From the NCBI RefSeq assembly GCF_046105845.1, contig NZ_CP151004.1: DNA of 64,000 nucleotides. The stretch is one strand, 5' to 3'. Origin of the DNA: Escherichia coli (GTDB taxonomy: Bacteria; Pseudomonadota; Gammaproteobacteria; Enterobacterales; Enterobacteriaceae). The translations under genes and the position numbers were made by a program. This document shows, in pieces, positions 9,229 to 9,352 of this stretch; the first letter of the stretch is position 1; the number at the start of each line of letters is the position of its first letter. Under the pieces are notes generated by a model that did not search any database, was not told where the DNA came from, and saw only the letters and a program-made list of their open reading frames with translations.

Positions 9229-9352
9229 TGCCGGATGCGGCGTGAACGCCTTGTCCGGCCTACAAAACCGAAACGTATGTAGGCCTGGTAAGGCGCGTCA
9301 GCGTCGCATCAGGCAGTTGTTGTCGGATAAGGCGTGAAAGCCTTATCCGTCC
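9229..9352. repeat. REP/BIME cluster in the malE-malF spacer
   Basis: Several palindromic units (gccggatgcggcgtgaacgccttgtccggcctac, ggcgcgtcagcgtcgcatcaggc, ggataaggcgtgaaagccttatccg). Confidence 0.7.

What the first reader, a model, noticed from the sequence alone, without database searches (positions are those of the whole stretch)
9229..9352. REP cluster in the malE-malF spacer
Several palindromic units form a BIME just downstream of malE. This is the classical case in which REP hairpins stabilise the upstream malE message, and the sequence appears intact here.
Basis: partly seen in the sequence, partly recalled or inferred. Interest (0 to 1): 0.2.

Follow-up and report, generated by a model that had tools for sequence, protein, structure and literature searches.

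The report
Known REP hairpins after malE
This is the well-known cluster of three repeated palindromes between the E. coli maltose genes malE and malF; it folds into hairpins that shield the malE message from degradation, and here it is intact and ordinary.

Summary
Nothing here is new.

- **Location.** The window is the E. coli malB region. malE (8028-9218) and malF (9372-10916) are separated by 153 nt.
- **Content.** The spacer holds three palindromic units. REP1 (9229-9264) is Z2 type. A 15-nt linker follows. REP2 (9278-9316) is Y type and inverted relative to REP1. REP3 (9321-9353) is a decayed Z copy with a perfect 10-bp stem. Together they make 1⅓ units of a 92-nt BIME-2 repeat; E. albertii carries three more units at the same site.
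- **Comparison with K-12.** The spacer differs at two bases. Both changes give G·U pairs in the mRNA strand, and the predicted fold is unchanged (-75.2 vs -75.6 kcal/mol; z = -6.7 against shuffles).
- **Repeat family.** The REP1-REP2 unit matches at least 40 places per genome in 5425 of 5426 E. coli genomes.
- **Function.** A published term-seq 3' end of the stabilised malE RNA maps to window position 9355, 6 nt past the REP3 stem. Published half-lives are 3.5 min for malE and 1 min for malFG.
- **Other species.** In 80 Enterobacterales species the spacer nearly always folds strongly, but the occupant varies: REP pairs, ERIC elements, other palindromes or unique hairpins.

Novelty: already known. 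Interest is low.

The parts
8028..9218 (+). malE coding sequence (396 aa), the stabilised upstream gene; TAA stop codon at 9216-9218
   Evidence: NCBIfam equivalog NF007011, 775.7 bits, full length; ORF list
9229..9264 (+). REP1, a Z2-type palindromic unit. On the + strand it reads as the inverted form, with CTAC at 9260-9263. The stem has one C x T mismatch.
   Evidence: 1 mismatch in 34 to a recalled Z consensus, none expected by chance. Its reverse complement matches the published Z2 sequence of PMC2817692 at 33 of 35 positions (compared by eye). The local hairpin is -20.3 kcal/mol.
9265..9277 (.). Core of the short tail-to-tail linker (S type). 15 nt separate CTAC from GTAG (9264-9278). 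It contains no IHF-type long linker.
   Evidence: Sequence. By contrast, the two BIME-1 elements in the same window have linkers of about 40 nt. BIME definitions from PMC3333891.
9278..9316 (+). REP2, a Y-type palindromic unit. GTAG lies at 9279-9282 on the + strand and the stem has a 2x2 internal loop. It carries the two differences from K-12 (9288 and 9293, A to G).
   Evidence: 2 mismatches in 36 to a recalled Y consensus. It matches the published Y sequence at 33 of 37 positions (compared by eye). Alignment to K-12. The local hairpin is -20.7 kcal/mol against -21.9 in K-12.
9321..9353 (+). REP3, a decayed Z-type unit that begins a second 92-nt repeat. It has a perfect 10-bp stem (9324-9333 with 9340-9349) and a 6-nt loop, and lacks both the GTAG/CTAC and the stem mismatch.
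   Evidence: 82% identical to REP1 at 92-nt spacing; inverted repeat I6 is 100% complementary. Hairpin -17.8 kcal/mol; pairing probability about 1. It aligns with the last unit of the E. albertii array.
9355..9355 (+). Position that corresponds to the published 3' end of the stabilised malE mRNA, 6 nt after the REP3 stem
   Evidence: The 60-mer upstream of the term-seq 3' end in table S6 of PMC5927463 matches window 9296-9355 exactly. The mapping was done in a laboratory E. coli strain, not in this strain.
9350..9363 (+). Predicted small helix, UCCU (9350-9353) with AGGA (9360-9363), that covers the malF ribosome-binding site. A side observation only.
   Evidence: Present in the minimum-energy fold; pairing probabilities 0.82-0.96. 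No experimental support was found.
9372..10916 (+). malF coding sequence (514 aa), the first gene of the unstable downstream segment
   Evidence: NCBIfam equivalog NF008232, 978.6 bits

Best explanation
The spacer is a BIME-2-type cluster of three REP units that is transcribed as part of the malEFG mRNA. In the RNA, REP1 and REP2 pair with each other into one long hairpin, or each folds on its own during transcription, and REP3 forms a separate perfect hairpin.

An endonuclease, RNase E in the published model, cuts in the poorly translated malFG segment. 3'-to-5' exonucleases (PNPase, RNase II) then degrade back to the foot of these hairpins and stall there. This leaves a translatable malE mRNA that outlives malFG, so the periplasmic binding protein is made in excess over the membrane subunits from a single promoter.

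- **Shown here:** the anatomy, the fold, family membership, intactness relative to K-12, and the exact match to the published RNA 3' end.
- **Taken from the literature:** the decay pathway and the half-lives.
- **Inferred:** that this strain behaves like the laboratory strains.
For: - **Context and anatomy.** malE and malF were identified by equivalog models. Three units were found with matches to the Z and Y consensus sequences that chance does not give.
- **Fold.** The RNA folds at -75.2 kcal/mol, z = -6.7. Pairing probabilities are about 1 for the REP1:REP2 helix and for the REP3 stem. No intrinsic terminator pattern lies in the spacer.
- **Intactness.** Only two substitutions separate it from K-12, and the fold is kept (-75.2 vs -75.6 kcal/mol).
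- **Polymorphism.** Across 8 E. coli alleles all 34 stem pairs stay paired in the mRNA strand. The 5 variable pairs are all one-sided changes to or from G·U, which would be A x C mismatches on the other strand.
- **Published RNA data.** The term-seq 3' end of malE RNA corresponds to 9355, 6 nt past REP3. PMC5927463 describes the exonuclease-barrier model and reports half-lives of 3.5 and 1 min. PMC4705995 states that RhlB enables PNPase to degrade the REP-containing malEF transcript.
- **Other species.** In 80 Enterobacterales species the spacer folds better than shuffles (median z = -3.0; 79% below -2), although the occupying element differs.
Against: - No RNA data exist for this strain; the function is transferred from laboratory strains.
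- The G·U pattern is 5 of 5 events, about 1 in 32 if the two kinds of transition were equally likely. The sample is small and the alleles are phylogenetically related.
- I counted those pairs on the three local hairpins, whereas the predicted equilibrium fold pairs REP1 with REP2.
- The 3.5-fold half-life ratio may be smaller than the excess of MalE protein (recalled, not checked here). PMC5927463 also links the stabilised genes to higher ribosome density.
- BIME-2 elements also have DNA-level partners such as gyrase (PMC6379681), so the RNA role need not be the only one.
- Strong folding in other species may partly reflect palindromic mobile elements settling in a permissive spacer.
Confidence: 0.88

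Rival explanations
1. The main role is at the DNA level. As a BIME-2 element, the cluster is a strong gyrase binding and cleavage site, or a topological barrier that absorbs supercoiling from the heavily transcribed divergent mal operons. The RNA effect would be secondary.
For: The cluster has the BIME-2 make-up, Z2 plus Y with a short linker. PMC6379681 reports gyrase cleavage sites over-represented in a subset of BIME-2 elements, preferentially in Y units, independent of transcription.
Against: - That paper names multi-copy BIME-2 elements (sucC-sucB, tldD-yhdP), not this locus.
- Only 1⅓ units are present here.
- The polymorphisms keep pairing in the mRNA strand only, which a double-stranded DNA site would not require.
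- Other species carry unrelated hairpins at the same place.
- An RNA 3' end maps at the foot of REP3.
Confidence: 0.05
2. The cluster lowers malFG expression mainly by stopping part of the transcription (Rho-dependent attenuation at BIME elements), not by protecting malE RNA from decay.
For: PMC2817692 lists facilitation of Rho-dependent termination among REP functions, and PMC3333891 lists transcription termination. An RNA 3' end at 9355 fits either termination or processing.
Against: - No intrinsic terminator pattern lies in the spacer.
- The measured half-lives differ 3.5-fold between malE and malFG, which termination alone does not produce.
- malF and malG must still be transcribed through the spacer, because the scan found no convincing promoter between malE and malF.
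Confidence: 0.05
3. The units are selfish or neutral copies of a mobile repeat spread by the REP-associated tyrosine transposase. They sit here only because the spacer tolerates them.
For: The repeat matches at least 40 places per genome in 5425 of 5426 E. coli genomes. The unit number differs between E. coli and E. albertii. Different repeat families occupy the same spacer in other genera. REP2 keeps the GTAG and the stem mismatch that PMC3333891 found necessary for transposase binding.
Against: - The spacer length of 153 nt and all three units were constant in the 8 diverse E. coli sampled.
- REP3 has lost the transposase recognition features but keeps a perfect stem, at whose foot the RNA end maps.
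- Species without any recognisable repeat still carry a strong hairpin after malE.
- The literature attributes malE stabilisation to this intergenic structure.
Confidence: 0.02

Closest known systems
The malE-malF REP/BIME of E. coli K-12 (REP mRNA stabiliser; Newbury et al. 1987, as cited in PMC5927463)
   Same: It is the same locus. The flanking genes, the 153-nt spacer length and the three units in the same order and orientation are all shared. 189 of 191 aligned bases are identical, and the sequence is identical to the published RNA 3'-end sequence.
   Different: Two A-to-G substitutions in the 5' arm of REP2 (9288, 9293). Each turns an A-U pair into G·U in the mRNA, and the fold energy changes by 0.4 kcal/mol. 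For the 88-nt REP1-REP2 query, 274 of 5511 matching records had a best match of at least 99% identity, which suggests a minority allele.
BIME-2 elements (tandem Y + Z2 units; for example REP325, the source of naRNA4)
   Same: Y and Z2 units in alternating orientation with a short linker and a 92-nt period. An Rfam naRNA4 near-match covers REP2+REP3 (57.1 bits).
   Different: There are only 1⅓ units in E. coli, against six in REP325 (PMC4550694) and 4⅓ at this same site in E. albertii. The last unit is degenerate. The naRNA4 score is below the gathering threshold of 59.5.
BIME-1 elements, of which two lie in the same window (509-609 and 30113-30212)
   Same: A Z-type unit and a Y-type unit in inverted orientation, lying outside genes.
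   Different: Those two have a tail-to-tail linker of about 40 nt that is AT-rich, the long linker that often carries an IHF site (PMC3333891). The malE-malF linker is 15 nt.
Protective 3' hairpins of other differentially decaying operons (hisJ-hisQ, artI-artQ, mglB-mglA and others in PMC5927463)
   Same: A stable hairpin without a U tract lies just upstream of a mapped RNA 3' end, downstream of the gene for a substrate-binding protein.
   Different: Here the hairpins belong to a genome-wide repeat family and lie in the spacer. PMC5927463 reports that such protective structures generally lie within protein-coding regions.

Membership tests
E. coli REP / palindromic unit | Imperfect palindrome of 30-40 nt able to form a stem-loop | tested here: met
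   REP1 folds at -20.3 and REP2 at -20.7 kcal/mol as local hairpins with internal mismatches. REP3 is a shorter, perfect palindrome.
E. coli REP / palindromic unit | Conserved GTAG tetranucleotide at the foot (CTAC in the inverted copy) | tested here: met
   CTAC lies at 9260-9263 (REP1) and GTAG at 9279-9282 (REP2). REP3 does not have it; its tail reads GTCCTGG. REP3 is therefore a decayed copy, not a canonical unit.
E. coli REP / palindromic unit | Sequence match to the Y, Z1 or Z2 type | tested here: met
   REP1 matches the published Z2 sequence at 33 of 35 positions and REP2 the Y sequence at 33 of 37 (PMC2817692). Matches to the recalled consensus sequences had 1 and 2 mismatches. I had no published Z1 consensus to compare, so Z2 versus Z1 rests on this match and on the short linker.
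E. coli REP / palindromic unit | Many dispersed copies outside genes | tested here: met
Four other REP sites lie in this 64-kb window, all between genes.
BIME-2 | Y and Z2 units in alternating orientation with a short linker and no long IHF-type linker | tested here: met
   The tail-to-tail linker is 15 nt and the head-to-head linker about 5 nt. The contrast is the BIME-1 elements in this window.
BIME-2 | Occurs as tandem copies whose number varies between strains or species | tested here: inconclusive
   There are 1⅓ units here and in all 8 E. coli sampled. E. albertii has three more 92-nt units at the same site.
BIME-2 | Bound and cleaved by DNA gyrase | not testable with these tools
   PMC6379681 gives only the general finding. 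I did not find this locus named there.
REP mRNA stabiliser (3' exonuclease barrier) | Lies inside the transcription unit, downstream of the stabilised gene, with no intrinsic terminator | tested here: met
   It lies between malE and malF of one operon. No terminator pattern was found in the spacer.
REP mRNA stabiliser (3' exonuclease barrier) | A stable RNA 3' end maps at the foot of the hairpin | tested here: met
   The published term-seq 60-mer matches window 9296-9355 exactly. The experiment itself was done in another E. coli strain.
REP mRNA stabiliser (3' exonuclease barrier) | Removing the element shortens the half-life of the upstream message | not testable with these tools
   Known from the literature for K-12 (Newbury et al. 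1987, cited in PMC5927463).
naRNA4 (Rfam RF02564) | Score at or above the family's gathering threshold | tested here: not met
   57.1 bits against a threshold of 59.5 at 9282-9352 on the minus strand, and not listed in the gathering-threshold scan. The resemblance arises because naRNA4 is itself a Y-Z2 unit (PMC4550694).
Intrinsic (Rho-independent) terminator | G+C-rich hairpin followed by a run of T | tested here: not met
   None was reported in 9219-9371. The tail after REP2 is GTTGTTGTC and the tail after REP3 is TCCTGGAATG.

The most novel reading that the evidence does not exclude
The malE-malF spacer may be a site where selection for any strong hairpin has repeatedly recruited whichever palindromic mobile repeat a lineage carries. 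Escherichia and Citrobacter have REP/BIME elements; Klebsiella oxytoca, Klebsiella indica, one Citrobacter youngae genome, Buttiauxella and others have ERIC; Enterobacter, Raoultella, Cedecea and Kluyvera have CCCTCTCCC-type palindromes.

In E. coli, REP3 would then be a domesticated copy. It has lost the transposase recognition features (GTAG and the stem mismatch) but kept a perfect stem, and it serves as the outermost exonuclease barrier.
Probability: 0.4. Interest if true: 0.3.

Novelty: already known. Interest (0 to 1): 0.08.

Why it matters
It matters mainly as a positive control. The scan correctly picked out a textbook regulatory repeat. The locus shows how a genome-wide palindromic repeat sets the ratio of proteins made from one operon by blocking RNA decay.

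The cross-species comparison adds a modest point: the strong hairpin after malE is what is conserved, while the element that supplies it has been replaced several times.

Tried and rejected
- A fuzzy regular-expression scan of the window for REP consensus sequences timed out. I replaced it with short-word BLAST.
- The copy of the MG1655 record in this collection lists no repeat features for the spacer, so I compared by alignment.
- The paper on REPs close to stop codons (Liang et al. 2015, PMC4427526) is not held. I cite its claim only second-hand from PMC12306157.
- No supplementary files of PMC3333891 are held, so I could not see how that paper classifies this particular BIME.
- PMC3328499 matched the literature search, but a whole-word look-up found neither search term in its main text.
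- naRNA4 membership was rejected because the score is below threshold. An intrinsic terminator was rejected.
- My fixed-window scan for the strongest local hairpin in other species was crude. I relied on whole-spacer z-scores instead.
- Salmonella was not among the 80 loci returned, so the often-cited Salmonella comparison was not made.

Full report
**Where we are.** The window is the E. coli malB region, read in the opposite orientation to the K-12 map. NCBIfam equivalog models identify MalK (6548-7753, minus strand as listed), MalE (8028-9218), MalF (9372-10916) and MalG (10931-11821) at full length with very high scores. A 301-base query across the spacer finds 5421 of 5426 complete E. coli genomes, always annotated malE | malF. 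The spacer runs from 9219 to 9371, 153 nt.

**The observation.**
- REP1 (9229-9264) reads TGCCGGATGCGGCGTGAACGCCTTGTCCGGCCTACA. It differs at one base in 34 from a Z-type consensus I recalled.
- REP2 (9278-9316) reads TGTAGGCCTGGTAAGGCGCGTCAGCGTCGCATCAGGCAG. On the other strand it differs at two bases in 36 from a recalled Y-type consensus.
- REP3 (9321-9353) is 82% identical to REP1 at a start-to-start spacing of 92 nt. It has a perfect 10-bp stem and a 6-nt loop.

No shuffle of the window produced a match to either consensus. Because those consensus sequences came from memory, I checked them against printed ones. Table 1 of PMC2817692 gives the Z2 and Y units that flank the E. coli transposase gene yafM. 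The reverse complement of REP1 matches Z2 at 33 of 35 positions, and REP2 matches Y at 33 of 37, with no length difference (compared by eye).

The RNA 9216-9375 folds at -75.2 kcal/mol, against -48.9 +/- 3.9 for dinucleotide shuffles (z = -6.7; none of 200 shuffles did as well).

**Membership of the repeat family.** Within this 64-kb window there are four other REP sites, all between genes:
- a Z+Y pair with a linker of about 40 nt at 509-609, between plsB and ubiA;
- a single unit at 5092-5123, between lamB and malM;
- another long-linker pair at 30113-30212, upstream of pepE;
- a partial Y unit at 46650-46675, beside the 5S rRNA gene.

PMC3333891 defines BIME-1 as Z1 + Y with a long linker, present as a single copy. 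It defines BIME-2 as Z2 + Y with a short linker, present as tandem copies. The malE-malF cluster has a 15-nt linker between CTAC (9260-9263) and GTAG (9279-9282), so it is of the BIME-2 kind. The two long-linker pairs elsewhere in the window are of the BIME-1 kind.

The 92-nt spacing between REP1 and REP3 is the repeat period. Escherichia albertii has exactly three more 92-nt Z2-Y units at the same site, and its array ends in the same degenerate unit and the same malF leader. E. coli therefore carries 1⅓ units.

REP3 lacks both the GTAG/CTAC and the stem mismatch. PMC3333891 found both features necessary for binding by the REP-associated transposase. REP3 is thus a decayed copy and not a canonical unit.

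**Intactness.** The spacer aligns to K-12 MG1655 without gaps. It differs at 9288 and 9293, both A in K-12 and G here, and both in the 5' arm of REP2. Each change turns an A-U pair into G·U in the mRNA.
- The whole-spacer fold is -75.2 kcal/mol here against -75.6 in K-12.
- The local REP2 hairpin is -20.7 against -21.9.
- The REP1:REP2 long hairpin is -51.9 against -52.3.

Seven further E. coli genomes were fetched to span the identity range of the search, and all have a 153-nt spacer. Six of them were aligned with the window and K-12. On that 8-sequence alignment, all 34 pairs of the three local hairpins are standard pairs in every sequence. Five pairs vary, and each varies on one side only, between a Watson-Crick pair and G·U. 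Read on the opposite strand, each of these five would be an A x C mismatch.

Five of five is only about 1 in 32 if the two kinds of transition were equally likely, and the alleles are related, so this is suggestive and no more. It does point to constraint on the transcribed strand.

**How it works.** The thermodynamic model puts REP1 and REP2 together in one long hairpin and gives REP3 its own hairpin, each with pairing probability near 1. During transcription REP1 can fold alone first; I cannot resolve which form matters in vivo. No intrinsic terminator pattern lies in the spacer.

PMC5927463 summarises the established model. After an endonucleolytic cut in malFG, 3'-to-5' exonucleases are stopped by the structure between malE and malF, so malE RNA persists. 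That study measured half-lives of 3.5 min for malE and 1 min for malFG.

Its table S6 lists the term-seq 3' end of the stabilised malE RNA together with the 60 nt upstream of it. That 60-mer matches window 9296-9355 exactly. The stable end therefore lies 6 nt beyond the REP3 stem, 16 nt before the malF start codon. The outermost barrier is the decayed third unit, and the processed RNA retains all three hairpins.

PMC4705995 states that the helicase RhlB enables PNPase to degrade the REP-containing malEF transcript. The malE-malF RNA is still used as a standard structured substrate for exonucleases.

**Related sequences elsewhere.** A scan of one genome per species with MalE returned 80 Enterobacterales loci. 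I located the malE stop codon and the malF start in each and folded the spacers.
- Spacer length ranges from 56 to 428 nt.
- The median z-score against dinucleotide shuffles is -3.0, and 79% of spacers are below -2.
- By simple motif tests, 17 spacers carry E. coli-like REP pairs (Escherichia, Citrobacter, some Kluyvera and others).
- 16 carry CCCTCTCCC/GGGAGAGGG palindromes (Enterobacter, Raoultella, Cedecea, Kluyvera, Yokenella).
- 9 carry an ERIC element (Klebsiella oxytoca, Klebsiella indica, one Citrobacter youngae genome, Buttiauxella, a Serratia).
- 38 carry other hairpins (Serratia, Yersinia, Photorhabdus, Hafnia and others).

The conserved property is a strong hairpin soon after malE. 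The sequence that supplies it is not conserved. This fits a selected RNA-structure role, although a permissive spacer that attracts palindromic mobile elements would give part of the same picture.

**Rivals.**
- *A DNA-level gyrase site.* This is plausible as an additional property, because BIME-2 elements are enriched for gyrase cleavage (PMC6379681). The strand-specific polymorphism pattern, the RNA end at REP3 and the unrelated hairpins in other genera argue against it as the main role.
- *Rho-dependent attenuation at REPs.* This is cited in the literature and could contribute, but it does not explain the different half-lives.
- *A purely selfish repeat.* This is hard to square with the constancy of the spacer in E. 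coli and with hairpins in species that have no recognisable repeat there.
- *Stalling of terminating ribosomes.* REPs fewer than 16 nt from a stop codon are reported to stall terminating ribosomes (Liang et al. 2015, as summarised in PMC12306157). REP1 begins 11 nt after the malE stop codon, so this could apply. I could not read the original paper and found no statement about malE.

**Other matches.** Rfam gives a near-match to naRNA4 over REP2+REP3 on the minus strand, 57.1 bits against a threshold of 59.5. naRNA4 is a Y-Z2 unit of REP325 (PMC4550694). The near-match therefore reflects the shared repeat family and is not evidence of a gene here.

**Verdict.** The element is the known malE-malF REP/BIME, intact, with two structure-neutral substitutions. 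Novelty: already known. Interest: low.

Noticed in passing
window 9350-9363: A predicted 4-bp helix, UCCU with AGGA, joins the 3' flank of REP3 to the malF ribosome-binding site. Its pairing probability is 0.82-0.96 in the thermodynamic model. If real, it could help keep MalF translation low. The published malE RNA 3' end (9355) falls inside it.
   Followed up: partly
L010:2392-2819 (Escherichia albertii): The malE-malF spacer is 428 nt and holds 4⅓ tandem 92-nt Z2-Y units, against 1⅓ in E. coli. It ends in the same degenerate unit and the same malF leader.
   Followed up: yes
L013, L016, L020, L024, L025, L029, L054, L056, L065 (malE-malF spacers): These species (Klebsiella oxytoca, Klebsiella indica, one Citrobacter youngae genome, Buttiauxella, a Kosakonia, a Serratia and others) carry an ERIC-like element in the spacer, with the core CCCCAGGAGCTTAC...GTGACTGGGGTG, in place of REPs. 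Sixteen other species carry CCCTCTCCC/GGGAGAGGG palindromes there.
   Followed up: partly
window 509-609: A Z+Y REP pair with an AT-rich linker of about 40 nt (the BIME-1 kind; ...AAATTCAATAAATTG... looks like an IHF site). It lies between the 3' end of plsB and the 3' end of ubiA.
   Followed up: partly
window 5092-5123: A single Z-type REP in the lamB-malM spacer of the divergent malK-lamB-malM operon.
   Followed up: partly
window 27818-30212: A gene for a mannose/sorbose-family PTS IID component (27818-28672) and one for a zinc-dependent dehydrogenase (28712-29953) lie just upstream of pepE. From memory this looks like the sorbose operon that K-12 lacks; I did not check that. A BIME-1-type REP pair (30113-30212) sits between this cluster and pepE.
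   Followed up: partly
window 11822-11920: A strong terminator-like hairpin (11892-11909, GGCGCTCC ACGG AGCGCC followed by T7) lies after malG. This 3' region is where the MalH small RNA is reported to arise (PMC8081044).
   Followed up: no
window 46650-51743: A complete ribosomal RNA operon on the minus strand: 16S at 50202-51743, a tRNA at 50044-50116, 23S at 46943-49847 and 5S at 46734-46849. A partial Y-type REP lies just beyond the 5S gene at 46650-46675.
   Followed up: no
window 20725-20921, 63739-63839, 18682-18830: Matches above the Rfam gathering thresholds: a lysine riboswitch, a TPP riboswitch and the small RNA family STnc430.
   Followed up: no
window 2255-3835: A 526-aa SopA-family protein gene (NCBIfam NF007264) lies upstream of malM on the minus strand.
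   Followed up: no
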